Below are positions 1 to 59,300 of a stretch of 64,000 bases of DNA, piece after piece. Every line of letters starts with the position of its first letter. Within the stretch, counting starts at the first letter, position 1. The DNA is from Minisyncoccota bacterium (lineage in GTDB: Bacteria; Patescibacteriota; Minisyncoccia; Phycocordibacterales; SBAW01). The position numbers and the translations under genes are program-made. The DNA lies in assembly GCA_035546575.1 (NCBI GenBank), contig DASZWN010000002.1, positions 187,319 to 251,318 of the forward strand, read 5' to 3'. Under the pieces are notes generated by a model. The model did no database searches, was not told the DNA's origin, and saw only the letters and a list, made by a program, of their open reading frames with translations.

Positions 1-555
1 TCCGAGTTGAGCAGAAGCACCAGGTCGTACGCCTCCTTGTCGAGCGGGTTCTCCCACTCGCCGAGCACGTTACGCTGCGCCAGATCGAGCCGCGAGTCGA
101 GACGCTTCTGATGCCGCTGCATCCGAAAGATCTTGAGCCGACGCTCGAAAGGCATATTCATCGTCGCCACGATAGTAAACGCCAAGTGTTCGCGCTCCAG
201 AGGATTGAGGAGCTCCAGAGCACGACGACGGTGCTGCCCATTGTCGATCGAAAGGTAGGCATCACTGGGACCGGTCAGGGTCCGTGCAGCCTCGTCGTAG
301 AGCCAACCGCCACCCAGGTCGCCCTGAATCGCTTCCAGCCAGATCATAGAGTGATCGATCATCGCCTGGGCGATATTCGTCGCATGATCTTCGTCGAGCT
401 TGCGGTTGACCCCGTTGGGATCCGTACCGAAGCGTTCCACCTTGCCGACCGTCACAAGCTGCTCGGCCGCGATGGAGAACATGAACACCCTGTCGCCGTG
501 CTGCTCCAGGACATTCACATTCGAGATAACGAGATTCCCCTTATCGTTAGTCATG
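1..555 (-). CDS. DGQHR-domain protein (DndB/DpdB-like, ParB/Srx fold), N-terminal part; C-terminus lies beyond the window edge
   Basis: Minus-strand translation from the ATG at 555 gives MTNDKGNLVISNV...NGVNRKLDEDHATNIAQAMID...AYLSIDNGQHRRRALELL. This contains the QR...DGQHR signature and extends past position 1. An upstream RBS-like GAGAGGAAA is present. The ORF was not in the supplied track because it has no in-window stop. Confidence 0.6.
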
Positions 556-731
556 GTTGCCAATTTCCTCTCAAGTTGGCGGGTTTAGGGATAGTTGCTC
601 AGCGGAGTATCGAGGGTCAGGTGAGGTACCTTACGCGACCTGTTCTGATTTCCAAGGAGCTAACTGTCTTCTACACTAATAGACTTATTGATGATTGTCA
701 ATATATATTCGATCTTTTATGCTACGTGAAA

Positions 732-749
732 GGCCGCGCGGACGCGGCC
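732..749 (-). terminator. GC-rich hairpin GGCCGCG-CGGA-CGCGGCC downstream of the small minus-strand gene; a T-rich tail follows on the minus strand
   Basis: Perfect 7-bp stem seen in the sequence. The minus-sense tail is TTTCACGTAGCATAAAAG. Confidence 0.35.
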
Positions 750-766
750 TCAATTGTTGAAAATAA

Positions 767-1066
767 TTACCCGTTGGCGCCTGGGTCATGCGGTGCTAGC
801 GGTTTGATCTCGTCTTTCAATACGGTGAAGGTTGTTCCTTCAGAAAAGTGGAGTTGGACTAGTCGTAGAGTACCGCGACCAGCAACTTCGGCCGAAAGGA
901 CAAATCCGGGCTTTTTTTCGGCAAGGTGAACATCGGTGATGTCGTTGCGCGAAATGCGCTTGGTGCCGAGGGCTGCGGTTAACTTGGGGACAAAGTCTGC
1001 GCTAACCCTGCCCTGTCCATATGCGTGAGCGCATACGTAGCGAATTTTATCGTCAGTGACTTTCAT
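767..1066 (-). CDS. Small hypothetical protein (about 99 aa) immediately upstream of the DGQHR gene
   Basis: ORF-track frame, with start chosen at MKVTDDKIRYVCAHAYGQG. It is preceded by a strong RBS GGAGG placed 7 nt from the ATG. No recognisable domain. Confidence 0.5.
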   Translation of the reverse strand: MKVTDDKIRYVCAHAYGQGRVSADFVPKLTAALGTKRISRNDITDVHLAEKKPGFVLSAEVAGRGTLRLVQLHFSEGTTFTVLKDEIKPLAPHDPGANG

Positions 1067-1145
1067 CGGTACCCTCCAAAGATCTCTCCTTCGCGGATTA
1101 TATACCTGCCTATTTAAAAAAGCATTTCGCGTATATAATCGCCTG

Positions 1146-3116
1146 ATGAAGGCTAAAAAACTCGTCGGGTTCGACCTCAAAGATATAGACACCGTGGTGC
1201 GGCCGCAGGACGACTTTTACCACTACGCAAACGGTGGTTGGCTCAAGAAAAACAAAATACCGGACTCGGAGAGCCGCTGGGGCAGCTTTATTATCCTGCG
1301 CGTCGAGGCAGAAAAAAATCTCAAAAAAATAATCGACTCACTTCTTAAAAACAAAAACCTTAAGAAAGGCAGTGCCGGGCAACTCGTGGGTGATCTATAC
1401 CGCTCGGCTATCGACATGAAGACGCGCAACAAGCTCGGCGCTTCGCCGCTCGCGCATCTGCGCAGCCGGATTGCCCAGGTTTCGAACCGTGAGGATCTGC
1501 TTTCGCTTGTGGGCTACTTCCACAAGCTGGGCATCGACACGCCCTGGCACCTGGTTGTTGATCAAGACTCCAAAGACAGTACGAGATATGCGCTCCATAT
1601 CTACCAAGGCGGTCTTGGCCTCCCCGACCGCGACTATTATCTCAAAGACGAGGCCGAATTTGTACGCGTGCGCGCTGCCTACCGAGAGTACGTAACAAAA
1701 GTGTTCGAGTTGCTGGGCTACAAAAAGGCCGAGGCATACAAAAAGGTAGAAACAATACTGCGGCTCGAGACCCGCCTCGCGCAAGCATCGATGAGCAAAG
1801 AGGATAGCCGGGACGCAGAAAAAATCTATCACAAAAAGAGTCTTTCCCGACTTCAAAAGGAGTTCTCGAGCATTGTATGGAACAAGTATTTTAGTACTGC
1901 AAAATTACCGAAAGTCCCATATGTGATTGTGGCGCAACCAAAATTTGTGGAGGCCGCTACGCATCTTATCGAAAATGGCTCGATCGACGACTGGAAAGTG
2001 TACTTAGAGTGGCATCTTGTAGGCGACGCTGCGACACTGCTTTCAGACTCTTTTTACAAAGCAGCGTTCAAATTCTCTCAGACCCTCACGGGTGCCAAAA
2101 CCATGAAGCCGCTTTGGCGTCGCGCGCTCGCAGCCGTAAACGGCGGGTTAGGAGAGCCTTTGGGACAAATGTACGTAGCAAAATATTTTGACCAGGCAAA
2201 GAAGCGCAAAATGGATACGCTCGTTAGCAACCTGTTTGCGGTCTACGAGGAGCGGATCAAGGCACTCGACTGGATGAGCCCGGCCACCAAGCGCAAAGCG
2301 GTTGCAAAGCTGCGCATGATCACGCGCAAAATAGGCTACCCAAGGGTGTGGAAGTCGTACAAAGGGCTGGTCATTAAGCCGCAAGAGTATTTTGAGAATA
2401 TCATGCGACTCACCGAGTTTGAGTATCGCCGGCAGATAAAAAAACTTACGCGCAAGTCGGTAGACCGCGGAGAGTGGTTTATGAGCCCGCAAACCGTTAA
2501 TGCCTATTGTAACTTTAACCTCAACGAGATTGTCTTCCCTGCCGCAATTCTCCAGCCGCCGTTCTTTAACTTTGCTGCGGATGACGCCTTTAACTACGGC
2601 GGCATAGGTGCGGTGATCGGCCACGAAGTAACCCACGCATTCGACGACCAGGGCGCCAAGTTTGACGGCCACGGCAACATGAAGACCTGGTGGCTCCCCA
2701 AGGACAAAAAGCAGTTTGAGCAGAAGGGTAAAATCCTTGTCGAGCAATACAATGGCTTTAGCGTAGCCGACGGGGTACAAGTAAACGGCCAATTAACGCT
2801 CGGCGAGAATATTGCCGACCTGGGCGGGCTCGTGATCGGCTACGATGCCTACCAAAAGCATCTTAAAACAGCGGGGCGAGAAGATATTGCCGGCCTCACC
2901 CCGGAACAGCGCTTCTTCTTGGGTTTTGCGCAGGTGGAGCGCGAGCTCGATAGGCCGGAGAGCATCAAAACCCGCACGCTCACCGACCCGCATTCGCCCT
3001 CGGAGTTTCGGATCAACGGCCCGCTCGCACATTTTGAGCCGTTTTACGAAGCGTACGGAGTCACCCCAAAAGACAAGCTCTACCGCGCTCCGAAAGACCG
3101 CGCGAAGATTTGGTAG
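1146..3116 (+). CDS. pepO: M13-family zinc metallopeptidase (PepO/neprilysin-like endopeptidase)
   Basis: HEVTHAFD zinc motif, an ENIADLGG motif, and N-terminal DDFYHYANGGW typical of the M13 family. Start chosen at MKAKKLVG. A TATAAT at 1134-1139 lies 6 nt upstream of the ATG, suggesting a leaderless transcript. Confidence 0.88.
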   Translation: MKAKKLVGFDLKDIDTVVRPQDDFYHYANGGWLKKNKIPDSESRWGSFIILRVEAEKNLKKIIDSLLKNKNLKKGSAGQLVGDLYRSAIDMKTRNKLGASPLAHLRSRIAQVSNREDLLSLVGYFHKLGIDTPWHLVVDQDSKDSTRYALHIYQGGLGLPDRDYYLKDEAEFVRVRAAYREYVTKVFELLGYKKAEAYKKVETILRLETRLAQASMSKEDSRDAEKIYHKKSLSRLQKEFSSIVWNKYFSTAKLPKVPYVIVAQPKFVEAATHLIENGSIDDWKVYLEWHLVGDAATLLSDSFYKAAFKFSQTLTGAKTMKPLWRRALAAVNGGLGEPLGQMYVAKYFDQAKKRKMDTLVSNLFAVYEERIKALDWMSPATKRKAVAKLRMITRKIGYPRVWKSYKGLVIKPQEYFENIMRLTEFEYRRQIKKLTRKSVDRGEWFMSPQTVNAYCNFNLNEIVFPAAILQPPFFNFAADDAFNYGGIGAVIGHEVTHAFDDQGAKFDGHGNMKTWWLPKDKKQFEQKGKILVEQYNGFSVADGVQVNGQLTLGENIADLGGLVIGYDAYQKHLKTAGREDIAGLTPEQRFFLGFAQVERELDRPESIKTRTLTDPHSPSEFRINGPLAHFEPFYEAYGVTPKDKLYRAPKDRAKIW

Positions 3117-3122
3117 TTTATA

Positions 3123-3197
3123 GCGAATATCTTTTAAAAAAGAGTGCACTCTGGCAAGTGACGGCCAAGTCTAACCCTCTTTTTTAAAAATATTCGC
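3123..3197. repeat. Near-perfect 21-22 bp inverted repeat (GCGAATATCTTTTAAAAAAGAG / CTCTTTTTTAAAAATATTCGC) flanking a 32-bp loop between convergent pepO and ung
   Basis: Read directly from the sequence. One indel separates the two arms. Confidence 0.6.
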
Positions 3198-3202
3198 AAA
3201 GA

Positions 3203-3871
3203 CTAAAGCCAGTCAATTGGTTTTTTGCCTTGCTTAACCAAGTAGTTGTTTGCTTTGCTGAATGGTTTTGAGCCAAAAAAACCGTTGTAGGCCGAGAATG
3301 GCGATGGGTGCGGAGATTCTATGACTAGATGTTTTGAGCGATCAATCCTCGCTCCTTTAGTGCGTGCATAGTTACCCCACAAGATAAACACTAAGTGCTC
3401 CCGCTGGTCCGAGAGCGCTGCAATAGCCGCGTCGGTAAACTGCTCCCAGCCCTTGTTTTGGTGTGATCCGGCCAAATGTGCTCGTACGGTAAGAGTTGCA
3501 TTTAAAAGGAGTACTCCTTGTTCTGCCCAACGAGTTAGATCGCCGCTTGTATGCACCATGGGTTTGCCCAAATCGTTCTCGATCTCTTTAAAAATATTCT
3601 GGAGGCTCGGTGGCAAGCGCATCCCCTCCTCTACTGCAAAAGAAAGACCGTTAGCTTGTTTAGGACCGTGATACGGGTCTTGGCCCAAAATCACGACCTC
3701 TACTTTTTCAAACGGGCAGAGTTGGAATGCCCTGAATATATTTTTTGGCGCGGGATATACGGCGCCGTTTTTATACTCGCTTTTTACAAAATCAGTAAGC
3801 TCCTTGAAGTACTCTTTACCAAACTCCTGCTCCAAATGTTGTTTCCAAGAAGCCTCGATCTTTACGTCCAT
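3203..3871 (-). CDS. ung: Uracil-DNA glycosylase (family 1)
   Basis: GQDPYH motif and overall UNG-like sequence (HPSPFSA, LLLNA). Confidence 0.9.
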   Translation of the reverse strand: MDVKIEASWKQHLEQEFGKEYFKELTDFVKSEYKNGAVYPAPKNIFRAFQLCPFEKVEVVILGQDPYHGPKQANGLSFAVEEGMRLPPSLQNIFKEIENDLGKPMVHTSGDLTRWAEQGVLLLNATLTVRAHLAGSHQNKGWEQFTDAAIAALSDQREHLVFILWGNYARTKGARIDRSKHLVIESPHPSPFSAYNGFFGSKPFSKANNYLVKQGKKPIDWL

Positions 3872-3875
3872 GGTT

Positions 3876-4172
3876 CTATAGTATCGCGCCTTCTTTTTTG
3901 AGGAGCGCGCGTTTTGCTTTTTCGCCGCCGCGGTTGTAGTTGCCTATCTTCCCGTCCGACCGGATCACACGGTGGCACGGTATGTTTTTGTCAAAATTCT
4001 GCGACATGTAAAACCCCACCGCCCGAGACGCTTTTGCGTTGCCTGCCTTTTTAGCAACTACGGCATAGGTCATAACCTGTCCCTTGGGGATTTTGGCAAC
4101 GACTGCGAGCACTCGCTTGCGGAAATCGCTTACTTTTTTAGAAGAGTTCTGCTGTCGTGGGCTCTTTTGCAT
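3876..4172 (-). CDS. Methylated-DNA-protein-cysteine methyltransferase DNA-binding domain protein (Ogt/MGMT C-terminal domain, standalone 98 aa)
   Basis: PCHRV active-site motif with the cysteine retained, plus HTH-like context. Confidence 0.75.
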   Translation of the reverse strand: MQKSPRQQNSSKKVSDFRKRVLAVVAKIPKGQVMTYAVVAKKAGNAKASRAVGFYMSQNFDKNIPCHRVIRSDGKIGNYNRGGEKAKRALLKKEGAIL

Positions 4173-4977
4173 CTTTTTTTGCTAATTTTTTAATCGCTGG
4201 GACTTTTTGCGGCGCTTTTTGCGAGGCTTGGTAGAGCGCTTTGCCCGCAGCTTGGCGATAGCGGCAGTAGTCGCAGTCATCGCTCGCCGCAGGAATCTGG
4301 TCAGAATCCAGACACTCTTTAAGCTTGGTAAGAGTTGGCTCGACCCAATCGGTTTTGCCCGTGTATGCAATAAGCGTTATATCAAACTCAAGCTTGCCGT
4401 CGAACGCTTCTTTGTCTTTAGACGCATTCGCGTATACAAAGTAGCCCGTGTCAGAAACTTTAAACCCCTTTTGACGCAGCAACCATTGATATATTTCCAT
4501 CTGGCGCTTATAGCCATCGTGCCAGTCCTGGTCGAGCGCCTCGATCTTGCTGTCTTTGCTCGTGGACTTATAGTCAACGACTATCAGCTCGCCTGCGGGG
4601 TTTACCCAAACATCGTCTACTGCTCCCGCGATAGTAAAACCCGTCGGCGTGTGTTGTATCTCAACTCCTTTAAAGTTTTCGCGCCAGGTGTCCATCTCGG
4701 CGTGCGCATAGGGCACCGCATCAATGCCATACGCTTTCATAAGCGGGTGTGGTGTTTTACCGTCGCGATGTATATCAAACTCTTTTTTAAGGAGTGCATC
4801 GACAGCGCTGTTGAGGTTAAATGGGAAGCCGGGCGGGCGGGCGGTCCCGAGTTTGTTGTCGAGATAAAAACAGCGCTGACACTCCAAAAAGAGTGCTATT
4901 TTTGAGCGCGAAAGGCGCCATTTTGGCCCGCCATAGTTCCAGTCCGGTTTGCGCTCGGGCTTGTAATAGAGGCTCAT
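4138..4977 (-). CDS. PD-(D/E)XK nuclease with 4-Cys cluster (Cas4/RecB-like family)
   Basis: VVDYKST motif (D..D/E.K nuclease core), N-terminal CQRC and C-terminal CDYC cysteine pairs. The start may be internal because the ORF overlaps the upstream gene by 35 nt. Confidence 0.65.
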   Translation of the reverse strand: MSLYYKPERKPDWNYGGPKWRLSRSKIALFLECQRCFYLDNKLGTARPPGFPFNLNSAVDALLKKEFDIHRDGKTPHPLMKAYGIDAVPYAHAEMDTWRENFKGVEIQHTPTGFTIAGAVDDVWVNPAGELIVVDYKSTSKDSKIEALDQDWHDGYKRQMEIYQWLLRQKGFKVSDTGYFVYANASKDKEAFDGKLEFDITLIAYTGKTDWVEPTLTKLKECLDSDQIPAASDDCDYCRYRQAAGKALYQASQKAPQKVPAIKKLAKKDAKEPTTAELF

Positions 4978-4994
4978 CGAGCCATTCTACCCTA

Positions 4995-5474
4995 TTAGTC
5001 TGAAGACGTCCCGTATCTATCTCTCAGCATGTTTTCCAGCTTAAGGAAGAGGGTGAAGATAATCAGACCCATAACCGTTGCCGCAAGACCGAGCAGGTAG
5101 AGCTCGAAAGCGCACGCAACGCCTATTGCCGCAGCCAGCCAGATGCCGGTTGCCGTAGTGAGCTCTACCGGGTGCTCGCCGCGGAATACCGCGAGGCCCG
5201 AGCCGATAAAACCCACTCCGATGATGACGGAGCTTGCAAGAGCAAGCGGCGTCACGCTCGCAAAGAAGCTGAATTGCAGACTTGCGAGTATGCCGACGGT
5301 TACAAACAGGCAGGAGCCCATAGCGACAAGCGCATAGGTACGCATACCAGCGTGTTTGCCTGCAATGGAGCGCTCAAGCCCAAGGACAGCCCCGAGTACT
5401 GCAGCTATTACGAGTGTTCCCACGAAGTGCACTTCTGAGAACGGGAGCAGTGCTGCAGTACTGACGGGTTCCAT
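4995..5474 (-). CDS. MgtC/SapB family membrane protein
   Basis: GLERSIAGKHAGMRTYALVAMGS signature of the MgtC family, with 4-5 TM segments. Confidence 0.8.
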   Translation of the reverse strand: MEPVSTAALLPFSEVHFVGTLVIAAVLGAVLGLERSIAGKHAGMRTYALVAMGSCLFVTVGILASLQFSFFASVTPLALASSVIIGVGFIGSGLAVFRGEHPVELTTATGIWLAAAIGVACAFELYLLGLAATVMGLIIFTLFLKLENMLRDRYGTSSD

Positions 5475-5483
5475 AAAGAATTA

Positions 5484-6182
5484 TTAGTTGGTCTTAAAGC
5501 TCGACCAAAGAGCACTGCCTGATGCGTCGGTTACCGGCTTATCGAGCGTGAGCGACAGCATATGATCGCCATCGTCTACGCGCTCGCCAAGTATGTATGT
5601 CTGAGCAGCCTGCGTTGCGCGCAAAAGCGGAATCGTAATGCCTTTGCCGTTATTTTCCGGGAAGAACATCGAGGCGCCGAGTATGCGCACTGGCTGACCA
5701 TTTGACGACTCGTATACGACAAGCCATGTAGGAACCGATACTGTTGCCGATGTCACAACCACCTGCATGCCCGCCGCCTGTGTTGCTACAGAAAGGCTGC
5801 CTGACGGGAGCATGCTGTTGCCTGTTGCTACGGAGCCAGACGGTTGCGAGCTTGAACTTGTGCTTGGCGTAGTCGTTGCTGTGTCGCTCGTGTCAGAAGT
5901 ACTCGAGCCCGCAGAAGTAAACCAGATCGTAGTAATGAGCGCCCCGATGATAAGTCCTGCGATAAAACCGCCGACTACCCGCGACGTGCTGTGTTGAGCC
6001 GAAGGCATGCTACTCGTGACTCCCGTACTCGACTTCATTGGCTGCGCTGGAGCTGCTGTCGGCCGTACTGATGCCGGTGTAGTAGTAAAACCGCTTGGAG
6101 CGCTTGCGGGCTTAGACTGCGTTTGAGTAGACGCTGCGGGCTGCGACCACGACAGGCCGCTTTGCTTCTTTTGTTCTTCCAT
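5484..6182 (-). CDS. Ser/Thr-rich membrane-anchored hypothetical protein
   Basis: ORF with a single TM segment (VVGGFIAGLIIGALITTIWF), low-complexity S/T-rich flanks and a C-terminal globular part. Confidence 0.5.
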   Translation of the reverse strand: MEEQKKQSGLSWSQPAASTQTQSKPASAPSGFTTTPASVRPTAAPAQPMKSSTGVTSSMPSAQHSTSRVVGGFIAGLIIGALITTIWFTSAGSSTSDTSDTATTTPSTSSSSQPSGSVATGNSMLPSGSLSVATQAAGMQVVVTSATVSVPTWLVVYESSNGQPVRILGASMFFPENNGKGITIPLLRATQAAQTYILGERVDDGDHMLSLTLDKPVTDASGSALWSSFKTN

Positions 6183-6197
6183 AACTGTTATCGCTTA

Positions 6198-6224
6198 CAA
6201 AAAACTGATAATGATTACTATCAG
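6198..6224 (-). terminator. Intrinsic terminator (hairpin CTGATAGTAATCATTATCAG followed by a T6 run on the minus strand) after the ATP-cone/Mrr gene
   Basis: 6-bp perfect stem plus TTTTTTG seen on the minus strand. Confidence 0.5.
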
Positions 6225-6252
6225 CTGGTTCCCCTGTGTACGAACCTCTCTA

Positions 6253-7062
6253 TCATATATCACTCCCTGGCACGCACAACGCGCCAACCTCCTCTAACAC
6301 CTTGTCGGCACGAGGCCCTACCACGCCTGCCTTTGAGAGCGCCTCCGTCTTTTCAGGCAATGCATTACACAACACCACACGCTCGCTCAGCAGAGCCGTT
6401 TTCTCGTGGTTTGAGAGACTGGTGAGCGCAGTGACCGGGTAGAGCTTTGCTTGGTCGATCCGGTCGTGCAGATTATTGCCCTGGGGATAATCCCACCCCA
6501 AAAGCTCAAGGCCGGCGCACTCAGCGTACTGTATTGCCTTGGTCGTGAATTTTGTATTAGTTACAACCAGGCCTCTTCCCTCACCAATATCGTCGACACG
6601 GGCTTTTACATAGAGCACTGTCTTGAGATCGGTTTTAAATCCCGCGGCATTGTGGAACTTTGCCTCCACAAATATCTTGTCGCTCCCTTTTGTAAGCACT
6701 ACATCAACCTCGTGTTCAACGCATCTGCCTTTTATGATTTGATCTATTTTTGCCTCATACCCTTGAGTGCGAAATAATTCGGCGACATAGGCCTCAAACG
6801 GAAACCCCGACGGGCCAAAGTCGAGCAGTGCGCGCTTGAGGCTGTAGCGCGCGGCAACCGTGTGCTTAACCTCGCGCAGATGTGCGAATGCGCGCGAGTA
6901 AATCTCCTGTGTGGTAATGCCGCTCCACAGCTGGCGCTCTATATCGTCTGCAACGCGCTGCGCAATATCCGGCTGCGCGCCCGCGCGCCGGAGCGATGCG
7001 ATAAGTTTCTGAGAGTCGAATGGCTCGCTGGTGCCGTCGGCTTTAGCAACAATAATACTCAT
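6253..7062 (-). CDS. ATP-cone domain fused to Mrr-like restriction endonuclease domain
   Basis: N-terminal ATP-cone (IVAKADGTSEPFDSQKLIASL...) and C-terminal PD-(D/E)XK Mrr_cat-like core (EVDVVL...FVEAKF). Confidence 0.72.
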   Translation of the reverse strand: MSIIVAKADGTSEPFDSQKLIASLRRAGAQPDIAQRVADDIERQLWSGITTQEIYSRAFAHLREVKHTVAARYSLKRALLDFGPSGFPFEAYVAELFRTQGYEAKIDQIIKGRCVEHEVDVVLTKGSDKIFVEAKFHNAAGFKTDLKTVLYVKARVDDIGEGRGLVVTNTKFTTKAIQYAECAGLELLGWDYPQGNNLHDRIDQAKLYPVTALTSLSNHEKTALLSERVVLCNALPEKTEALSKAGVVGPRADKVLEEVGALCVPGSDI

Positions 7063-7065
7063 GCG

Positions 7066-8139
7066 TCACTGAATTGTAGCATCTTTGATGACGCCTCCGC
7101 CCAAGCAACGCTCCCCCCGATACAGCACCATAGACTGGCCAAGCGGGACATAGTGCGGTTCTTTAAGCTCGACCTTTATTTGCTCTCCGGTAACTACAAG
7201 CTCTGCCGGTATGAGCGTTTGGCGATAACGGAACCGGGCTTCACACACGCCTCCGTCAACCTCTCCGATAAAGTGTACGTGTTCCAGATGTACTGAAGTG
7301 TTGCTGGCACCGTGCGGAAATTTAGATGCCGAGACCGTAATAGTATTGGCCAGCGTATTTTTGGATATCACAAAATGTGCTGGCACCTCGGGCCCCGCCA
7401 GAAACAGAGTGAAACCGTGCCGCTGCCCCAAGGTATAGAGCTCGCTGCCCTGGTGTACGCCAATAATCTCGCCCGCTTCCGAAAGTACATCGCCTGGTTT
7501 AGGCGCTACCTCGCGCTCAAGCATGTCCTCAAGCGATATATCGCCTAGAAAACAGAGTCCTTGGCTGTCTGGGCGCTTTGCGTTGGGCAGGTCAAATTTT
7601 TTGGCTAAGCGGCGTACCTTCGACTTCTCGAGATTTCCGACGGGAAACAGCGTGTGACGCAGTGCGGTTTCGGATACTCCGTACAAAAAATAGCTCTGAT
7701 CCTTATTTGCGTCGCGGCTCATGAGCAGCTTCCCGTCTTCTATGCGCGCATAGTGCCCGGTTGCAACCATATCAGCGCCGCGCGAGCGGCAAAACTCAAA
7801 AAATATACCGAATTTTATCTTTTCGTTGCACAGCGTGTCAGGGTTGGGGGTCTTGCCCAGTCTGAACTCTTCGATGGCGGGCTGAAATACCTCGCGCTCA
7901 TACTCGCGCGACAAATCTACCTCGATAAACGGTATCCCGAGGTGCGCTGCAACCCGCATTGCCTCTATGCGGTCGCGTGCGGCCGGGCATGGGTAGCCCG
8001 GGATCTGGATCTTGATAAATACGCCTGTCACGTCCCACCCTTCTTTTTGAAGCAGCGCCGCAGACACTGCAGAATCTACACCGCCGGAGATACCCACGTA
8101 CACCCTGCCTTTCTTTTTCTGTGTTAGTAAACCAAACAC
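7066..8139 (-). CDS. mnmA: tRNA-specific 2-thiouridylase MnmA
   Basis: PP-loop GISGGVDSAV plus overall MnmA/TrmU similarity. Confidence 0.9.
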   Translation of the reverse strand: MFGLLTQKKKGRVYVGISGGVDSAVSAALLQKEGWDVTGVFIKIQIPGYPCPAARDRIEAMRVAAHLGIPFIEVDLSREYEREVFQPAIEEFRLGKTPNPDTLCNEKIKFGIFFEFCRSRGADMVATGHYARIEDGKLLMSRDANKDQSYFLYGVSETALRHTLFPVGNLEKSKVRRLAKKFDLPNAKRPDSQGLCFLGDISLEDMLEREVAPKPGDVLSEAGEIIGVHQGSELYTLGQRHGFTLFLAGPEVPAHFVISKNTLANTITVSASKFPHGASNTSVHLEHVHFIGEVDGGVCEARFRYRQTLIPAELVVTGEQIKVELKEPHYVPLGQSMVLYRGERCLGGGVIKDATIQ

Positions 8140-19298: not shown

Positions 19299-22200
19299 AT
19301 GCTTGCTATCTGGAAATTCTTTATAGAAAAGCGCCAGTTCACTACGCTCTTAATCGCAGCTGTCGTATTGTGGGGCGTTGTTGCAGCGATACAAATAACC
19401 AAGGAGTCCGGCCCCGAGGTATCTATCCCGGTTGGTATTGTCACCACGGTGCTCCCAGGCGCCTCGGCCGAGGACGTTGAGCGTCTTGTGACCGACAAGA
19501 TGGAAACACATCTTGCTAACATCGAGAACCTCGACACCATCACCTCAACTTCGCGTGACGGAGTCTCTTCAGTGGTCGTACAGTTCCTCGCATCTGCCGA
19601 CCTTGATAAGTCGATCCAGAAACTCAAAGACGAGGTAGACAAAGCCAAGATCGACCTCCCAACCGAGGCAAAAGATCCGACCGTTTCCGATGTTAACTTT
19701 GTCGACCAACCGATCCAGATTATTTCTGTTTCCGCAGACGCGCCGTTTGTAAAACTTGCGGAGCTGGCCGACCAGCTCAAAGACGAACTCCAGTCAGTTA
19801 AGGGCGTGCAGCGCGTTGAGATCTCTGGTGTCCGCAATCGTGAGATCGATGTTGTTGTTAAAAAAGAGGAGCTCGCTCGCCTCAACATCAGCCTGCCGCA
19901 GGTGGTACAGGCTATCAGTGCCGCAAACTCGTCGCTCCCGGTTGGCGCTATCACCGTAGACAATGTCAACTACAATATTGCGTTTGAGGGCAGCTTCGAT
20001 ACTGTTTCTGACATCGGTAGCGTTGCGATCCTTAACGTAAACGGCCAAGTAGTGTATGTGCGCGATATCGCAGATGTATCTGATGGTATCGAAAAAGCAA
20101 CTTCGTACTCGCGAGTTTCGGTAAGCGGAGCACCGTCCGAGCAAGCAATGTCGCTCCTTGTATACAAGGTACGCGGCCAGGACGTCACTACCGTAACTCG
20201 CACCGTTAAAGCAAAACTCGACGATCTTAAAAAGTCGATTCTTAACGGCAGCCAGGTGGTGGTCTCGCTCGACGCTGGCGACGAGGTGCAAAAAGATCTC
20301 ACTGAACTGACGCGCACCGGCCTCGAGACTATGGCGCTCGTAATGTTGGTGCTGTTTTTGACGCTTGGCTGGCGCGAGGCAGTTGTGGCCGGCGCTTCTA
20401 TCCCGCTTTCATTCCTCATCGCATTCGTGGGGCTTCTCTACTCGGGCAACACGCTCAACTTTATATCGCTCTTCTCGCTCATTCTTGCTATCGGCATTCT
20501 TGTGGACTCCGGTATCGTGGTGGTTGAGGCGATCCACACGCGTATTCGCAAATTTGGCGACAAACAGATGGCGGGCATGGAAGCCTTGCGCGAATATGCC
20601 TGGCCGCTCATGGGCGGCACTATTGCAACGGTCTCGTTCTTCGTACCGCTTTTCTTTATCTCGGGCATTGTCGGCAAATTTATCGCTTCGATCCCTTTTA
20701 CGCTTATCTTCGTGCTTATTGCCTCGATATTCGTAGCGCTCGGCCTTGTGCCGACGCTCACCATTATGTTTTCCAAGAGCGGGCACGACAGCCGCCTGGT
20801 AGCAATACAGGAGGAGTACACCGAGCGCGCCCGCAAATGGTACGCAGACAAGCTGCAACACTTCCTGGACCGTCGTACATGGCAAAACCGCTTTTTGTGG
20901 GGCATGGGTCTGGCGTTTGCACTTGCGATTGCCCTCCCTATAACCGGCATATTGCCCGTTTCCTTCTTCCCGCAGGAGGACATCGACTTCCTCTACGCCG
21001 ATATTGAACTTCCTCCGGGCAGCACCCTTGCGCAGACCGACCTTTCGGTGCGCGAAGTCGAGGATCGCCTCTACGGAGACAACAATATCGCATCGTTTGT
21101 AGCCGAGGTAGGCGCCTCGAGTGAGTTCGGCAATAACCCGCAACGCGACCCGCGTTTTGGCAACATCACCATCAACCTTGCAAAGGACCGCAGCAAAACC
21201 AGTACCGAAATACTCAGCGATATCCGCAAAGATCTCTCCGACATCACCAGTGCCAAAATAACCGCAGGCGAGCCGAACAACGGACCACCCGTAGGCGCGG
21301 CCGTTGACGTTAAGTTCCTCGGTCTCGACCAAGACGCTCTCGATACTACTGTAGCAAAAGCACGCGCAGTGCTTGAGGCAACACCGGGAGCAACCAGCGT
21401 AGATGCATCAAATAAAAACGAGACGCTTGAGTTTGACCTTAAGGTAGACCGCGCAAAACTCTCGCAAGTCGGGCTTTCCCCTGCTGCGGTAGCAAGCACG
21501 CTGCGCACTGCAGTCTCTGGCGTTAAAGCAACCTCGATCTCAGGTCTTGACCGCGATGTCGATGTGAACGTGTATCTTAATATCAATCCGTCATACACCG
21601 ACCCGCACGACACCACCAATACCAGCCTCGACGGCCTCCACCAGATCCCGATCACTACGCCAAGCGGCACTACCGTGCTTTTAGGCTCCTTACTCGAGGA
21701 GAGCATTACGCGCAACAACTCGATCATTAACCACGAGGATCGCAAACGCGTTGTAGAGCTGACCGCAAATACGCTCCCAGGCTACACTGCAGCCGGCGTA
21801 CTCGCTGCATACAACAAGGGTATGGAGCAGGTTGAGCTCCCACCAGGCGTGACTGTCTCGATCGGCGGCGAGAACGAGGAGACCAACAAGTCGTTTGCAG
21901 AAATGGGTTACGCGCTCCTCGCCGGTATTGCGCTCACGTTCGTTATCCTGGTTATCTCGTTTAACTCCTACCGTTTTGCGGGCTTCTTGCTTATCTTGGT
22001 GCCGCTCTCGCTTATTGGCGTCTTCGGCGGCTTGGTGCTCACCGGCCAGATGCTCTCATTCTCATCGCTCTTGGGCGTTATTGCGCTCGCAGGCGTTATC
22101 ATCAACCATGCGATTATCCTCATGGACTCGATCATTCAGCGCCTCAAGCATGGCGCCGGCCGTACGCTCAGCGACATTGTTATCGAGGCTGCAGTATCGC

Positions 22201-22409
22201 GCCTTCGCCCAATTATCCTCACGACTGTCACGACCGTAATCGGCATGATTCCGCTCACCTATGCCTCGGCGCTCTGGGGCCCGCTCGCATTTGCGATCCT
22301 CTTCGGCCTCTCGTTTGCGATGATCCTTACGCTCGTACTGATCCCAACGCTCGTGTACCGCTGGCCAGGCGTATTGCCGGAAGGAGTAGTAAAACCTAAA
22401 AATAAATAA
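19299..22409 (+). CDS. RND efflux transporter permease (AcrB/AcrD/AcrF family)
   Basis: 1036 aa, 12-TM architecture with two large periplasmic loops, and AcrB-like N-terminus. Confidence 0.9.
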   Translation: MLAIWKFFIEKRQFTTLLIAAVVLWGVVAAIQITKESGPEVSIPVGIVTTVLPGASAEDVERLVTDKMETHLANIENLDTITSTSRDGVSSVVVQFLASADLDKSIQKLKDEVDKAKIDLPTEAKDPTVSDVNFVDQPIQIISVSADAPFVKLAELADQLKDELQSVKGVQRVEISGVRNREIDVVVKKEELARLNISLPQVVQAISAANSSLPVGAITVDNVNYNIAFEGSFDTVSDIGSVAILNVNGQVVYVRDIADVSDGIEKATSYSRVSVSGAPSEQAMSLLVYKVRGQDVTTVTRTVKAKLDDLKKSILNGSQVVVSLDAGDEVQKDLTELTRTGLETMALVMLVLFLTLGWREAVVAGASIPLSFLIAFVGLLYSGNTLNFISLFSLILAIGILVDSGIVVVEAIHTRIRKFGDKQMAGMEALREYAWPLMGGTIATVSFFVPLFFISGIVGKFIASIPFTLIFVLIASIFVALGLVPTLTIMFSKSGHDSRLVAIQEEYTERARKWYADKLQHFLDRRTWQNRFLWGMGLAFALAIALPITGILPVSFFPQEDIDFLYADIELPPGSTLAQTDLSVREVEDRLYGDNNIASFVAEVGASSEFGNNPQRDPRFGNITINLAKDRSKTSTEILSDIRKDLSDITSAKITAGEPNNGPPVGAAVDVKFLGLDQDALDTTVAKARAVLEATPGATSVDASNKNETLEFDLKVDRAKLSQVGLSPAAVASTLRTAVSGVKATSISGLDRDVDVNVYLNINPSYTDPHDTTNTSLDGLHQIPITTPSGTTVLLGSLLEESITRNNSIINHEDRKRVVELTANTLPGYTAAGVLAAYNKGMEQVELPPGVTVSIGGENEETNKSFAEMGYALLAGIALTFVILVISFNSYRFAGFLLILVPLSLIGVFGGLVLTGQMLSFSSLLGVIALAGVIINHAIILMDSIIQRLKHGAGRTLSDIVIEAAVSRLRPIILTTVTTVIGMIPLTYASALWGPLAFAILFGLSFAMILTLVLIPTLVYRWPGVLPEGVVKPKNK

Positions 22410-38050: not shown

Positions 38051-38593
38051 ATGGACATGCTCCCCAACTCGATAACGATCACTATCGTATTGCTGACCGC
38101 ATTTCTTTCTTTTATCACGGCTATTAAATACGGGGTCGAGGACGACTTTGTACGTACACGGTTCATCATGACCGCGTTCTTTTTCTTTATAGTAGCAACG
38201 CTCACCGTATCGTTTTGGCACTATACCTTCGACACGCTCCCCTACACGGTGCCTGCATGGGGTTTAGGCGCCTTGATCGGCTATATATTGGGCGTACGCA
38301 CCGAGCAGCAGAAGTTGCGTGACCAAGGTTTGGCTTACTACACCGAGCACTTTGCGCATATCCATATGCAAGACATCGAAAAGCTCAACTGGTGGGCTGT
38401 GATCAACTTCTACTCCGTCATAAGTGCGCTTATTATGATCAATTTGGTGGGCCTAAGCACCGTGATCTTTAAACAAGCCGAGAGTTGGGCGATCATCACG
38501 AGCGTCGTGGGAGCGTTTCTGCTCGGCACCATCGCTCCGTACCTAGTTCATCTTTGGAGCCTGCCTGCCGGCAGGCAGGTATCAAATAAATAG
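38051..38593 (+). CDS. Hypothetical integral membrane protein
   Basis: Start chosen at MDMLPNS. 5 or more TM segments. The 3-prime end overlaps the 20-bp palindrome CCTGCCTGCCGGCAGGCAGG. Confidence 0.5.
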   Translation: MDMLPNSITITIVLLTAFLSFITAIKYGVEDDFVRTRFIMTAFFFFIVATLTVSFWHYTFDTLPYTVPAWGLGALIGYILGVRTEQQKLRDQGLAYYTEHFAHIHMQDIEKLNWWAVINFYSVISALIMINLVGLSTVIFKQAESWAIITSVVGAFLLGTIAPYLVHLWSLPAGRQVSNK

Positions 38594-39286
38594 ACCTGCT
38601 GATATCAAAGCACCGCATACTATCAAAAGCACAACGAGCGAAATATAAAATACGATCCTTGCGCGGCGGCGCTGCTTATCATTCTGCGGGCGTCTAACCA
38701 AGAGCGGCACGCCCGCATTGGCGTACTCGTCGTAGCGGTAGCGCGCAATCGCCAAAAAGTGCGGTAGCTGCCATACAAACAGTATTGCAAAGAGCCACAA
38801 GGCGGTCATATCTAGCGCATGGGCAGCAGCAACGTAACCCACGACCGGCGGCATAGCGCCCGCAACAGCACCCGGAAAAAGGGCGAGGCCCGTACGCGGC
38901 TTGAGCGGCGTATAGATAAGCACGTAGACAACAAATCCGATAAGCGCCATATCGAGCGAGCGCATGTCGAGCGGGAGCATAAGCAGTATCCCGACCGCAA
39001 GCAGTGCAAACCCGAACACGAGCGCATGTGCCGAGACAATACTGCCCGATGGGAGCGCGCGCTTTTGAGTGCGCTCCATTTTGGCGTCGATAAACCGGTC
39101 TGAGTAGTTATTAAAGACGCATGCGCTTGCAACAATGCACGCAAGACCTAGCACCATGGCAGCAAACGCTTTCCAGTCGACTACACCATGCGAGCCAAAT
39201 ATAAATGCAGCAGCCGCAACCGCCACATTCATGTAGACCATGCGCGGCTTGGCGAGGCGATAATACGAGCTAATCAGTGTCGGCAT
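38582..39286 (-). CDS. cyoE: Protoheme IX farnesyltransferase (heme O synthase)
   Basis: UbiA-family prenyltransferase motifs (NNYSDRFIDAKMERT). Last gene of the cyo operon. Confidence 0.8.
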   Translation of the reverse strand: MPTLISSYYRLAKPRMVYMNVAVAAAAFIFGSHGVVDWKAFAAMVLGLACIVASACVFNNYSDRFIDAKMERTQKRALPSGSIVSAHALVFGFALLAVGILLMLPLDMRSLDMALIGFVVYVLIYTPLKPRTGLALFPGAVAGAMPPVVGYVAAAHALDMTALWLFAILFVWQLPHFLAIARYRYDEYANAGVPLLVRRPQNDKQRRRARIVFYISLVVLLIVCGALISAGLFI

Positions 39287-39635: not shown

Positions 39636-40205
39636 TTAGAGCGAGCCAAACAGATACACAAACGTAAAGATAAAGATCCAGATAATATCGAGGAAGTGCC
39701 AGAACAAGCTTAGTATGGTAAGCCGGCGCACCGCAGTATCGGTAAATCCCCGCCTCCATATATAGGCTGCGAGTATCAGCATCCAGAGCAGGCCGATCGA
39801 TACATGGAGCCCATGCGTGCCAAGGAGCACGAAGAACGAGGAGAGGAACGCGCTCACCCCAGGCCCGCTCCCCTCCCCAACTAGATGCACAAATTCGCTA
39901 CCTTCAAGCAATATGAAGAAGAATCCCAGTATCCACGTTGCCGCAAGCGCAAAAAGGGACTGCGCTTTTTTACCCTCGCGTGCCCGCAAGACTGCGATCC
40001 CTGCGGTAAAGCTGGAGCTGAGCAGTACTACTGTTTCCAAAAGCACAAACGGCAGGTCAACAATCGTTTCTATAGATACTCTGCCAAAGGTTGCATCTTG
40101 GAGCACTGCATAGGTGGCAAAAAGGCCGGCAAACAAAACGCAGTCGCTCATGAGATATACCCAGAAGCCGAAGGTTACTTTGTCGAGTAGAGATTCTTCT
40201 TTCAT
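39636..40205 (-). CDS. cyoC: Heme-copper quinol oxidase subunit III
   Basis: Subunit III-like 5-TM sequence ([16 protein letters not shown]). Confidence 0.8.
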
Positions 40206-59286: not shown

Positions 59287-59300
59287 AAAAGGCTATTCTA

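What the first reader, a model, noticed from the sequence alone, without database searches (positions are those of the whole stretch)
1..7062. DNA-defence and repair gene cluster at the window edge: DGQHR-domain (DndB/DpdB-like) gene with small partner, plus ung, MGMT-like, Cas4-like nuclease and ATP-cone-Mrr fusion
A minus-strand ORF running off the left edge carries the QR...DGQHR signature (NGVNRKLDEDHATNIAQ...SIDNGQHRRRALELL). This signature belongs to DndB/DpdB-type proteins, which act in DNA phosphorothioation or 7-deazaguanine modification and restriction.

A 99-aa unknown protein with a strong GGAGG RBS lies immediately upstream. The segment from here to 600 is GC-richer than the segment that follows.

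Within 7 kb downstream there are several more DNA-targeting genes:
- a family-1 UDG;
- a standalone MGMT DNA-binding domain protein;
- a 4-Cys PD-(D/E)XK Cas4/RecB-like nuclease;
- an ATP-cone fused to an Mrr-like endonuclease.

The remainder of the putative modification/restriction module would lie beyond the window start.
Basis: partly seen in the sequence, partly recalled or inferred. Interest (0 to 1): 0.55.

Follow-up and report, generated by a model that had tools for sequence, protein, structure and literature searches.

The report
Lone DndB-like gene, not defence island

Summary
All the domain calls in the finding check out:
- a DGQHR/DndB-like gene cut by the window edge;
- a 99-aa ORF with a GGAGGG ribosome-binding site;
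- family-1 ung;
- a 98-aa MGMT C-domain protein;
- a Cas4-like PD-(D/E)XK nuclease;
- an ATP-cone–Mrr fusion.

The cluster interpretation fails. A 100%-identical contig extends past the edge. It shows a complete 342-aa DGQHR gene with its own terminator, followed by alaS. In 15 homologous loci, all from Patescibacteria, the gene is solitary among core genes (alaS, serS, groES/EL, mur/ddl). No Dnd, Dpd or Ssp partner appears, and no neighbour is shared by more than three loci. The 99-aa "partner" is an ORFan. The window's TGT-like gene is ordinary tRNA Tgt. The ATP-cone–Mrr family sits in nucleotide-metabolism operons in other phyla.

Three new features of the DGQHR family turned up:
- The family is small and so far seen only in CPR genomes, and it scores nearer DpdB than DndB.
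- The gene is about 0.1 GC-richer than its flanks in 24 of 25 loci, entirely at third codon positions.
- It has a long leader ending in a covarying hairpin that holds the Shine-Dalgarno sequence (17/25 versus 6/111 control genes).

The function remains inferred: probably an NTP-switched DNA-binding protein under translational control.

The parts
1..554 (-). N-terminal 184 codons of a 342-aa solitary DGQHR-domain (DpdB/DndB-like, ParB/Srx-fold) protein. The rest lies beyond the window edge.
555..701 (-). Putative promoter (TTGACA at 701-696; weak -10 TAGTGT at 678-673) and 5' leader of about 120 nt. Conserved blocks are CCTTGGAAATCA (657-646) and GATACTCCGCTGA (611-599).
   Evidence: No Rfam match.
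559..580 (-). Hairpin GCCAA / loop CTTGAGAGGAAA / TTGGC, with the Shine-Dalgarno in its loop, 4 nt before the ATG.
   Evidence: 17/25 family genes versus 6/111 control genes, with stem sequences that covary between lineages.
767..1066 (-). 99-aa lineage-specific ORFan with a GGAGGG RBS (1077-1072). It is followed by a GC hairpin at 749-732. It is not a conserved partner.
1146..3116 (+). M13 (PepO-like) zinc endopeptidase. Unrelated to DNA functions.
3203..3871 (-). Family-1 uracil-DNA glycosylase (ung).
   Evidence: NF003592 329 bits; TIGR00628 277 bits, above cutoffs
3876..4172 (-). 98-aa stand-alone MGMT C-terminal (alkyltransferase) domain that retains the PCHRV active-site cysteine.
4138..4977 (-). 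Solo Cas4-like PD-(D/E)XK nuclease with conserved Cys. It overlaps the MGMT gene by 35 nt. The window has no CRISPR array or cas genes.
   Evidence: PMC5704561
4995..5474 (-). MgtC-family membrane protein (context).
5484..6182 (-). S/T-rich membrane-anchored DUF7282 protein (context).
6253..7062 (-). ATP-cone + Mrr-like PD-(D/E)XK fusion with an invariant D119/E132/K134 triad. Its start lies 3 nt after the mnmA stop.
7066..8139 (-). tRNA 2-thiouridine synthase MnmA (context; housekeeping).

Best explanation
Window 1-7062 is an ordinary, vertically inherited stretch of a Patescibacteria (CPR) chromosome. Several unrelated DNA-handling genes happen to lie in one long co-directional gene string. 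It is not a defence or modification-restriction island.

**The DGQHR gene**
- It is a solitary member of a small DGQHR family found so far only in CPR genomes. The family scores closer to DpdB than to DndB.
- It is a self-contained transcription unit: its own promoter, a 5' leader of roughly 100-190 nt, a covarying hairpin holding the Shine-Dalgarno sequence, and its own terminator before alaS.

**Inferred mechanism**
- This is by analogy with DpdB, DndB and ParB.
- The protein would be a homodimeric NTP-binding or NTP-hydrolysing switch. Its ParB/Srx-fold N-domain carries the nucleotide pocket (GVNR and D(D/N)GQHR motifs).
- Its helical C-domain would engage DNA.
- With no transglycosylase or sulfur-transfer partner nearby, it most likely acts alone as a DNA-binding or regulatory protein.
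- Its own synthesis would be controlled post-transcriptionally through the leader and SD hairpin, possibly by autoregulation.

**The other genes**
- Cas4-like, MGMT-domain and ung form a housekeeping repair string.
- The ATP-cone-Mrr protein belongs to a cross-phylum family that elsewhere heads nucleotide-metabolism operons.

**What is shown and what is inferred**
- Shown: gene identities, context, solitude, composition and hairpin statistics.
- Inferred: NTPase activity, DNA binding, and regulation by the leader.
For: **The left flank is housekeeping.**
- L001 is 100% identical to the window and runs past the edge.
- It shows the 342-aa gene, an intrinsic terminator, then alaS.

**Context in related loci.**
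- The gene lies upstream of alaS in 3 loci and of serS in 2.
- It lies beside or near groES/EL in 3, and beside ddl/mur in 1.
- No neighbour family is shared by more than 3 of 15 loci.

**Inheritance looks vertical.** Divergence tracks the adjacent core genes:
- AlaS 80% and 70% against DGQHR 78% and 64%.
- SerS 72% against DGQHR 75%.

**No sign of mobility.** No relatives on phage or viral contigs.

**Family identity.**
- 44/44 members hit TIGR03187, best E=1e-21.
- 26/44 hit PADLOC DpdB and 5/44 hit DndB.
- The AF2 model has pLDDT 93.
- PMC10164549 reports the same top hit for DpdB, which is a DNA-stimulated ATPase homodimer.
- DndB is a homodimeric autoregulatory DNA-binding protein (PMC4507180).

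**Leader and hairpin.**
- Promoters lie 130-230 nt upstream.
- The SD hairpin with >=5 Watson-Crick pairs occurs in 17/25 family genes versus 6/111 neighbouring genes, p=4e-11.
- Its stems covary between lineages.
- Leader MFE z-scores average -1.1, with 14 of 16 negative.

**No DpdA in the window.** The TGT-like ORF is canonical Tgt (TIGR00430 451 bits; DpdA 18 bits), next to uvrABC.

**ATP-cone-Mrr context.** Homologues at 42-44% identity sit in an operon of ATP-cone protein, MBL hydrolase, thymidine-phosphorylase-family protein and Prs, in Pontibacter and Criblamydia.
Against: - Only about 1.3 kb beyond the edge and 64 kb of a larger genome were seen, so a distal partner elsewhere in the genome cannot be excluded.
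- This protein scores below the curated cutoffs of TIGR03187 and PF14072. It also has Asn in place of the motif's Asp, so NTP hydrolysis may be altered.
- The window's own leader is not significantly more stable than shuffles (z about -1).
- Covariation in the upstream leader helix is minimal with 5 sequences.
- A hairpin with the SD in its loop could enhance translation rather than repress it.
- The persistent GC3 excess is not explained by this model.
- The family is rare: 92 clusters at 50% identity, and 12 GTDB species found by a pattern-limited scan. It is therefore not a CPR core gene.
Confidence: 0.7

Rival explanations
1. One reading: the DGQHR gene and its small neighbour are the edge of a Dnd, Dpd or Ssp-type DNA modification/restriction module. 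The module continues beyond the window start. Together with ung, MGMT, Cas4 and ATP-cone-Mrr it forms a defence-and-repair island.
For: - The DGQHR domain is genuinely the DndB/DpdB domain.
- Several DNA-acting genes lie within 7 kb.
- The gene is compositionally distinct from its surroundings.
Against: - The gene beyond the edge is alaS, after a terminator.
- 0 of 15 homologous loci have modification or restriction partners.
- The small ORF is an ORFan.
- PADLOC calls no system.
- The intervening genes are a peptidase, MgtC and a membrane protein.
- Synteny with core genes is conserved in relatives.
- The GC excess is family-wide and tracks host GC, which does not fit a recent island.
Confidence: 0.03
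2. The solitary DGQHR protein works in trans with partners encoded elsewhere in the genome. One candidate is a DpdA-like enzyme, or even the housekeeping Tgt, acting to insert 7-deazaguanine into DNA. That would make it a dispersed minimal Dpd-like modification system.
For: - The family scores closest to DpdB.
- DpdB is an ATPase that is obligatory for DpdA transglycosylation (PMC10164549).
- A tgt gene is present 59 kb away.
Against: - That tgt is a canonical tRNA enzyme, above its equivalog cutoff and a poor DpdA match.
- It sits with uvrABC.
- Known dpdA and dpdB genes are adjacent.
- No TGT-like gene lies near any of the 15 loci.
Confidence: 0.1
3. It is a stand-alone defence or abortive-infection effector, or another potentially toxic ParB-like NTPase or nuclease. 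It would be kept nearly silent by the SD hairpin and leader. Its high GC3 would reflect frequent recombination or exchange among CPR strains (GC-biased gene conversion).
For: - The translation-initiation hairpin is tightly conserved, and in several loci it pairs part of the SD or the AUG.
- Distribution is patchy and rare.
- The gene carries its own promoter and terminator.
- Family-wide GC3 excess.
- ParB/DUF262-type domains act in SspE, GmrSD and BrxU defence.
- The conserved loop E-x2-R-x2-E-x2-H-R-P-x-G-x-N lies between two short strands and a helix.
Against: - No nuclease domain is detected by Pfam, NCBIfam or PADLOC.
- Divergence parallels the neighbouring core genes, which indicates vertical descent.
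- It is absent from phage and viral collections.
- It does not lie in variable islands.
Confidence: 0.12
4. The high GC3 and the open antisense frame mean that a second, overlapping gene is encoded on the opposite strand of the DGQHR gene.
For: - Antisense ORFs of 300-425 codons cover the gene in many loci.
- 8 of 23 genes contain no TTA, CTA or TCA codon at all.
Against: - All A-ending codons are avoided (4-12%).
- TCA is not specifically depleted against other NCA codons (p=0.10).
- A codon-aligned open antisense frame is the expected by-product of low A3.
- No antisense start or RBS conservation was seen.
Confidence: 0.03

Closest known systems
DpdB (DGQHR-domain ATPase of the Dpd 7-deazaguanine DNA modification system; Salmonella Montevideo, PMC10164549)
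   Same: - ParB/Srx-fold N-domain with a DGQ(H/Q)R-type motif, plus a helical C-domain.
- Size of about 340-370 aa.
- 26/44 family members hit the PADLOC DpdB model and 20/44 hit NF041060.
   Different: - No adjacent dpdA, dpdC or dpdD-K in any of 15 loci.
- This particular protein hits DpdB only at E=0.017.
- The family is seen only in Patescibacteria and lies among housekeeping genes.
- It has a structured leader, an SD hairpin and a GC3 excess, none of which is described for dpdB.
DndB (regulator of the dndBCDE phosphorothioation operon; PF14072, TIGR03233; PMC4507180)
   Same: - DGQHR motif family.
- Homodimeric DNA-binding autoregulator, which is the functional model for a partner-less member.
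- Weak PF14072 hit (24-26 bits).
   Different: - Scores are below the Pfam cutoff.
- Only 2/44 members touch TIGR03233.
- There is no dndCDE operon for it to regulate.
- The TACG-N10-CGTA operator was not looked for. The conserved elements lie in the transcribed leader.
ParB-family CTPase switches (ParB, Noc, KorB, PadC)
   Different: - No HTH or parS-type domain was detected.
- There is no ParA partner.
- Sequence identity is 9-15%.
- The motif is DGQHR rather than GERRxR.
Solo-Cas4 of small-genome bacteria and archaea (PMC5704561)
   Same: - PD-(D/E)XK core, QxxxY motif and conserved Cys.
- No CRISPR-cas nearby.
- Vertically inherited in CPR.
- A repair-type neighbourhood (MGMT, ung).
   Different: - Below the TIGR00372 cutoff (32 versus 65 bits).
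- The Cys pattern is CxxC ... C ... CxxC, rather than the classical C ... CxxCx5C.
NrdR and other ATP-cone regulators; Mrr-type (Type IV) endonucleases
   Same: - An ATP-cone N-domain above the Pfam cutoff.
- An Mrr_cat PD-(D/E)XK domain with an invariant D...ExK triad.
   Different: - No Zn-ribbon, unlike NrdR, and no Mrr N-terminal DNA-recognition domain.
- In Bacteroidota and Chlamydiota the family heads an operon of MBL hydrolase, thymidine-phosphorylase-family protein and Prs.
- Here it follows mnmA. No methyltransferase or defence context is present.

Membership tests
DGQHR domain (TIGR03187) / DndB superfamily (PF14072) | Profile score at or above the curated cutoff | tested here: not met
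   - Full-length protein: TIGR03187 at 37.1 bits against a 58.85 cutoff; PF14072 at 23.9 against 29.1.
- Window fragment: 27.3 and 26.4 bits.
DGQHR domain (TIGR03187) / DndB superfamily (PF14072) | Statistically significant, near full-length homology to the domain | tested here: met
   - E=2.8e-9 over profile positions 5-269 of 276.
- 44/44 family members hit, best E=1e-21.
DGQHR domain (TIGR03187) / DndB superfamily (PF14072) | Conserved QR/NR and DGQHR motifs | tested here: met
   - GVNR and S-I-D-(D/N)-G-Q-H-R.
- G, Q, H and R are invariant in 44 sequences.
- This protein has N for the motif's D.
DGQHR domain (TIGR03187) / DndB superfamily (PF14072) | ParB/sulfiredoxin-fold N-terminal domain | tested here: met
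DndB proper (Dnd phosphorothioation system) | Encoded with dndCDE (dndBCDE operon), with or without dndA and dndFGH | tested here: not met
   Neighbours are alaS, serS, groES/EL, mur/ddl and peptidases in 15 loci. No PAPS-reductase-like, SMC-like or DndE genes are present.
DndB proper (Dnd phosphorothioation system) | Match to the DndB equivalog model TIGR03233 | tested here: not met
   No hit for this protein. Only 2/44 members hit, at E>=2e-4.
DpdB (Dpd 7-deazaguanine system) | Match to DpdB models (NF041060, PADLOC PDLC02811) | tested here: inconclusive
   - This protein: PADLOC E=0.017 only.
- Family: 20/44 hit NF041060 (best 1.2e-12) and 26/44 hit PADLOC DpdB (best 6e-17).
DpdB (Dpd 7-deazaguanine system) | Adjacent dpdA (TGT-like DNA transglycosylase) and dpdC | tested here: not met
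   - None in 15 loci.
- The only TGT-like gene in the window is canonical Tgt, 59 kb away.
DpdB (Dpd 7-deazaguanine system) | DNA-stimulated ATPase activity required for preQ0 insertion | not testable with these tools
   This is a biochemical property (PMC10164549).
Cas4 (TIGR00372 / COG1468) | Equivalog score, PD-(D/E)XK motifs, four Fe-S cysteines, association with cas1/cas2 | tested here: inconclusive
   - 32.3 bits against a 65-bit cutoff.
- PF12705 at 55.9 bits, above its cutoff.
- D...DxK...QxxxY and 5 conserved Cys are present.
- The window has no CRISPR array or cas genes.
- The best fit is solo-Cas4-like (PMC5704561).
Family-1 uracil-DNA glycosylase (Ung) | Equivalog models above cutoff; GQDPYH and HPSP motifs | tested here: met
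   NF003592 at 329 bits against 162; TIGR00628 at 277 against 186. The motifs are visible in the translation.
O6-alkylguanine-DNA alkyltransferase (Ogt/MGMT) | C-terminal DNA-binding/active-site domain with PCHR cysteine; N-terminal domain | tested here: inconclusive
   - C-domain met: PF01035 at 97.7 bits, TIGR00589 at 76.3 against 46.4, and PCHRV is present.
- Full-length equivalogs are far below cutoff because the N-domain is absent.
Mrr-type Type IV restriction endonuclease | Mrr_cat catalytic domain plus a modified-DNA-recognition N-domain, in a defence context | tested here: not met
   - Mrr_cat is present (47 bits) with an invariant D/E/K triad.
- The N-domain is an ATP-cone, not a DNA reader.
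- Homologues sit in nucleotide-metabolism operons.
- PADLOC gives only weak domain hits.
Known cis-regulatory RNA families (Rfam 15) | Covariance-model match of the DGQHR leader | tested here: not met
   - No hit with E<2 on window 520-790.
- No leader hits in 17 homologous loci.

The most novel reading that the evidence does not exclude
The CPR DGQHR genes may define an undescribed, self-contained unit with these features:
- a solitary DpdB-like ParB-fold NTPase;
- mRNA carrying a new class of structured leader, made of a long imperfect hairpin with conserved internal loops followed by a covarying SD-presenting hairpin;
- the leader acting as a ligand-sensing or protein-binding (autoregulatory) translational switch;
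- a sustained, gene-specific GC3 excess that reflects selection on the mRNA or DNA itself and not on the protein.

This would be a new regulatory RNA motif. It would also be a new, partner-independent biological role for the DGQHR domain in ultra-small bacteria.
Probability: 0.3. Interest if true: 0.65.

Novelty: new variant of a known kind. Interest (0 to 1): 0.4.

Why it matters
**As a defence island, the finding does not stand.** This is a caution against reading function from the proximity of DNA-related domains. In compact CPR genomes nearly everything lies in long co-directional strings.

**What remains is a small open question.**
- DGQHR proteins are understood only as accessory parts of the Dnd and Dpd systems.
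- Here a whole clade has lived without those partners, inherited alongside core genes.
- It carries a conserved translational hairpin and a synonymous-site composition unlike every neighbouring gene.
- If the leader is a true regulatory RNA, it would add a motif from a part of the tree where very few are known.
- It would also give a handle on what a stand-alone DGQHR protein senses or binds.

**The ATP-cone–Mrr family is a second tractable lead.** Elsewhere it sits beside MBL hydrolase, thymidine-phosphorylase-family and PRPP-synthetase genes. That points to a nucleotide-sensing nuclease or regulator in nucleotide salvage rather than a restriction enzyme.

Tried and rejected
- **Homologue search with the 184-aa fragment.** The word-index search found nothing. 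The full-length sequence from L001 was needed.
- **Solved structures by sequence.** A search with the family profile gave no relative.
- **The 99-aa ORF.**
  - No family in three libraries, and no homologue other than itself.
- **AFDB50 fold search.** The library was unavailable.
- **Expression-linked codon bias as the cause of high GC3.** Rejected. Ribosomal-protein genes and groEL in the same loci have ordinary GC3 of 0.44-0.68.
- **Recent HGT as the cause.** Disfavoured.
  - The gene tracks host GC with a roughly constant offset.
  - Its divergence parallels the neighbours.
- **An overlapping antisense gene.** Not supported.
- **Internal repeats or palindromes in the gene body.** Nothing notable.
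- **RNAalifold on the five group-A leaders.**
  - It recovered the pairing of the two conserved blocks, with only one compensatory pair.
  - MAFFT could not put the SD hairpins of all lineages in register.
  - The hairpin was therefore scored by a script against control genes instead of with the pair-counting tool.
- **Thermodynamic stability of the window's own leader.** Not significant.
- **MBL, thymidine-phosphorylase and Prs partners of the ATP-cone-Mrr gene.** A tblastn search of the window found none.
- **Literature.** No paper links DndB or DGQHR to Patescibacteria, or describes an ATP-cone-Mrr fusion.

Full report
**1. Checking the observation**

The left 8 kb of the window carries these genes, all on the minus strand except the peptidase:

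| Window coordinates | Gene |
|---|---|
| 3-554 | DGQHR-type ORF running off the edge |
| 767-1066 | 99-aa ORF |
| 1146-3116 (+) | M13 peptidase |
| 3203-3871 | ung |
| 3876-4172 | 98-aa MGMT C-domain protein |
| 4138-4977 | Cas4-like PD-(D/E)XK nuclease |
| 4995-5474 | MgtC |
| 5484-6182 | S/T-rich DUF7282 protein |
| 6253-7062 | ATP-cone + Mrr_cat fusion |
| 7066-8139 | mnmA |

- The edge fragment (184 aa) matches PF14072 DndB at E=4.5e-6 and TIGR03187 DGQHR at E=2.7e-6. Both scores are below the curated cutoffs.
- The motif reads SIDNGQHR rather than DGQHR.
- GGAGGG lies 5 nt before the ATG of the 99-aa ORF.
- The DGQHR segment is 0.597 GC. The window mean is 0.525 with sd 0.027, and only 0.4% of 1-kb windows reach that value.

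**2. Looking past the window edge**

- The intact 99-aa protein was looked up by exact sequence. This returned a 5.2-kb contig (L001) that is 100% identical to the window over 1.2 kb and extends about 1.3 kb further.
- On L001 the DGQHR gene is complete at 342 aa. It is followed by a 12-bp GC-rich hairpin with a T-run, then by the N-terminus of alanyl-tRNA synthetase (PF01411 at 2e-56; NF002436 at 2e-79).
- Full-length, the protein matches TIGR03187 across nearly the whole profile (positions 5-269 of 276, E=2.8e-9, 37 bits). PADLOC gives only DpdB at E=0.017.
That test is met.

**3. The family and its contexts**

- The full-length protein has 88 relatives at 37-78% identity. All are about 340 aa, and those that carry names come from Patescibacteria. 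The exact protein is an NCBI 'Candidatus Paceibacterota' hypothetical.
- An exhaustive HMMER search of 1.84 billion cluster representatives found only 92 at E<=1e-3.
- A pattern-based scan of 185,579 GTDB species genomes gave 12 loci, all Patescibacteria.
- Neither IMG/VR viral contigs nor INPHARED phages hold a relative.
- All 44 aligned members hit TIGR03187 (best E=1e-21). 26 hit PADLOC DpdB and 20 hit NF041060 DpdB. Only 5 and 2 hit the DndB models.
- In eight annotated contexts, and 15 non-redundant loci overall, the gene is always alone among core genes:
  - upstream of alaS in three loci;
  - upstream of serS in two;
  - downstream of or near groES-groEL in three;
  - next to ddl/mur in one.
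- All-against-all clustering of neighbouring ORFs found no family shared by more than three loci.
- The 99-aa ORF has no homologue other than itself among 5.8 billion proteins. Different genes replace it in the closest relatives.
- DGQHR divergence parallels the adjacent housekeeping genes. This indicates vertical co-inheritance.

| Adjacent gene | Its identity between loci | DGQHR identity, same loci |
|---|---|---|
| AlaS | 80% and 70% | 78% and 64% |
| SerS | 72% | 75% |

- In a relative whose DGQHR protein is 78% identical, the gene order is conserved: yceG, mnmA, ATP-cone-Mrr, MgtC, PDDEXK, MGMT, DGQHR, alaS, then infA-rpsM-rpsK-rpsD-rpoA. This is core chromosome, not an island.

**4. The protein**

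- An AlphaFold model built from the 44-sequence alignment is confident (pLDDT 93.2).
- DndB is a homodimeric autoregulator of dndBCDE (PMC4507180).
- The invariant residues (GVNR, DGQHR, R139, F143, Q146) fit a preserved nucleotide pocket.
- The only TGT-like gene in the 64-kb window (59301-60566) is canonical tRNA Tgt. It scores 451 bits on TIGR00430 against a 307-bit cutoff, and only 18 bits on DpdA. It lies beside uvrB, uvrA and uvrC.
- My inference is that the protein is an NTP-switched, probably DNA-binding dimer acting without the known partners. Nothing here tests activity.

**5. Unexpected features of the gene itself**

*Composition*
- In 24 of 25 loci the gene is 0.05-0.27 GC-richer than its flanks. 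Host flanks range from 33% to about 60% GC.
- The excess lies entirely at third codon positions. GC3 is 0.80-0.93 for the DGQHR gene against 0.39-0.71 for every neighbour. Those neighbours include ribosomal-protein genes and groEL, so expression-linked codon bias is excluded.
- Recent transfer from one donor is unlikely, because the gene tracks host GC and diverges with its neighbours.
- The long antisense ORFs are best explained as a by-product of avoiding A-ending codons.
- I have no explanation for the GC3 excess.

*Leader*
- Most loci have a TTGACA-N16-18-TAnnnT promoter 130-230 nt upstream of the start codon.
- The leaders fall into lineage-specific groups with conserved blocks.
- RNAfold folds them as a long imperfect hairpin followed by a short hairpin.
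- No Rfam family matches the leader in the window or in 17 homologous loci.

*SD hairpin*
- The short hairpin has a 5-8 bp stem. GGAG sits in its loop or 3' arm, and the hairpin ends 0-7 nt before the start codon or overlaps it.
- With identical start-codon selection for both sets, a hairpin with at least 5 Watson-Crick pairs occurs in 17 of 25 DGQHR genes. It occurs in 6 of 111 neighbouring genes (Fisher p=4e-11).
- The stems differ between lineages while pairing is kept:
  - GCCAA/TTGGC
  - GTTGC/GCAAC
  - GTTAC/GTAAC
  - GTCGA/TCGAC
  - TCGAT/ATCGA
  - ACCGAC/GTCGGT
  - CTTAC/GTAAG
  - CATTGC/GCAATG
- Variable stem sequence and loop length argue for an RNA element rather than a DNA operator.

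*Caveats*
- The window's own leader is not more stable than shuffles (z about -1).
- Leader z-scores across 16 loci average -1.1, with 14 of 16 negative.
- Covariation in the long hairpin is not yet demonstrable.
- The loci are phylogenetically related, so the p-values overstate independence.

**6. The other DNA genes**

- ung is a bona fide family-1 UDG.
- The 98-aa MGMT-domain protein keeps the PCHRV cysteine.
- The Cas4-like protein keeps D...DxK...QxxxY and five Cys, and overlaps the MGMT gene by 35 nt. The same pairing is conserved in a relative.
- The window has no CRISPR array.
- Solo-Cas4 is already documented as over-represented and vertically inherited in CPR genomes (PMC5704561).
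- The ATP-cone-Mrr fusion has an invariant D119/E132/K134 triad.
- It has full-length homologues (42-44% identity) annotated 'ATP cone domain-containing protein' on Pontibacter and Criblamydia plasmids.
- In both plasmids it heads the same run: ATP-cone protein, MBL-fold hydrolase, thymidine-phosphorylase-family protein, ribose-phosphate pyrophosphokinase.
- None of those partner genes is in the window.
- That context points to nucleotide metabolism or sensing rather than restriction.

**7. Verdict**

- The finding as written is not supported as a functional unit. It described a defence-and-repair cluster with the rest of an R-M module off-window.
- It is a run of independent housekeeping and repair genes in a compact CPR chromosome.
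- The DGQHR gene is a new variant of a known kind: a solitary DpdB/DndB-like clade seen only in CPR genomes.
- Its reproducible peculiarities are a gene-specific GC3 excess, a long structured leader and a covarying SD hairpin. These are unexplained and were the most interesting result of the follow-up.
- Interest is moderate. It is low for the original claim, and higher for the leader and composition features if they prove functional.

Noticed in passing
L001:3395-4423 (window 1-554 plus the off-window part), and 24 other family loci: The DGQHR gene is 0.05-0.27 GC-richer than its flanks in 24 of 25 loci. The excess lies wholly at third codon positions: GC3 is 0.80-0.93 against 0.39-0.71 for all neighbours, including ribosomal-protein genes and groEL. 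It tracks host GC with a constant offset. This is unexplained.
   Followed up: yes
window 555-701 (-) and the homologous 5' regions of L003-L036: The DGQHR gene has a long 5' leader (about 100-190 nt). It carries lineage-specific conserved blocks and a covarying hairpin that holds the Shine-Dalgarno sequence (17/25 family genes versus 6/111 control genes). No Rfam family matches it.
   Followed up: yes
L032:1301-1355 (+) and L028:2662-2712 (+): Type III hammerhead ribozyme matches (RF00008) score 34.2 and 32.4 bits, below the 48.5-bit gathering score, with E=1.5e-4 and 4.7e-4.
- They lie on the same strand, about 190-200 nt downstream of the DGQHR stop, in two independent metagenomic loci. Each sits just before the next ORF.
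- L032 has a complete canonical core; L028 is imperfect.
- No such match was found in L004, L006, L007 or L009, or in the window.
   Followed up: partly
window 6253-7062 (-); L022:1972-6597; L023:4995-9602: On Pontibacter and Criblamydia plasmids the ATP-cone-Mrr family heads a conserved four-gene run: ATP-cone protein, MBL-fold hydrolase, thymidine-phosphorylase-family protein, ribose-phosphate pyrophosphokinase. This suggests a role in nucleotide metabolism or sensing rather than restriction. Those partners are absent from the window.
   Followed up: partly
window 40202-42115 (-), with flanking ORFs 42117-42935 and 38582-39286: Cytochrome o ubiquinol oxidase subunit I (CyoB, TIGR02843 at 1040 bits, above its cutoff) is encoded in a Patescibacteria genome. 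Terminal oxidases are uncommon in this group.
   Followed up: no
window 52535-60566 (-): uvrC, uvrA, uvrB and canonical tgt lie in one co-directional run. DNA-repair genes are therefore dispersed over the window and not concentrated at the left edge.
   Followed up: partly
window 19299-22409 (+) and 49118-50590 (+): An RND-type efflux permease (1036 aa) and a DHA2-family MFS transporter are present. These are large transporters for a reduced genome.
   Followed up: no
window 111-929 (+) / L001:3020-4186 (-): The frame antisense to the DGQHR gene is fully open: 388 codons in L001 and 300-425 codons in many relatives. The codon test indicates this is a by-product of general avoidance of A-ending codons and not an overlapping gene.
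   Followed up: yes
window 767-1066 (-): The 99-aa ORFan has a strong RBS and a terminator-like GC hairpin (749-732). It occurs only in this genome and in one sister sample. The single-sequence AF2 model (pLDDT 70) shows two helices plus a four-stranded sheet, with only generic cystatin-like matches.
   Followed up: yes
P0120, P0124 (534-536 aa) and P0137, P0138, P0144, P0147 (441-458 aa): Distant relatives found by the exhaustive search carry N-terminal extensions of about 110-190 aa in front of the DGQHR module. These are possible fusions that could hint at function.
   Followed up: no
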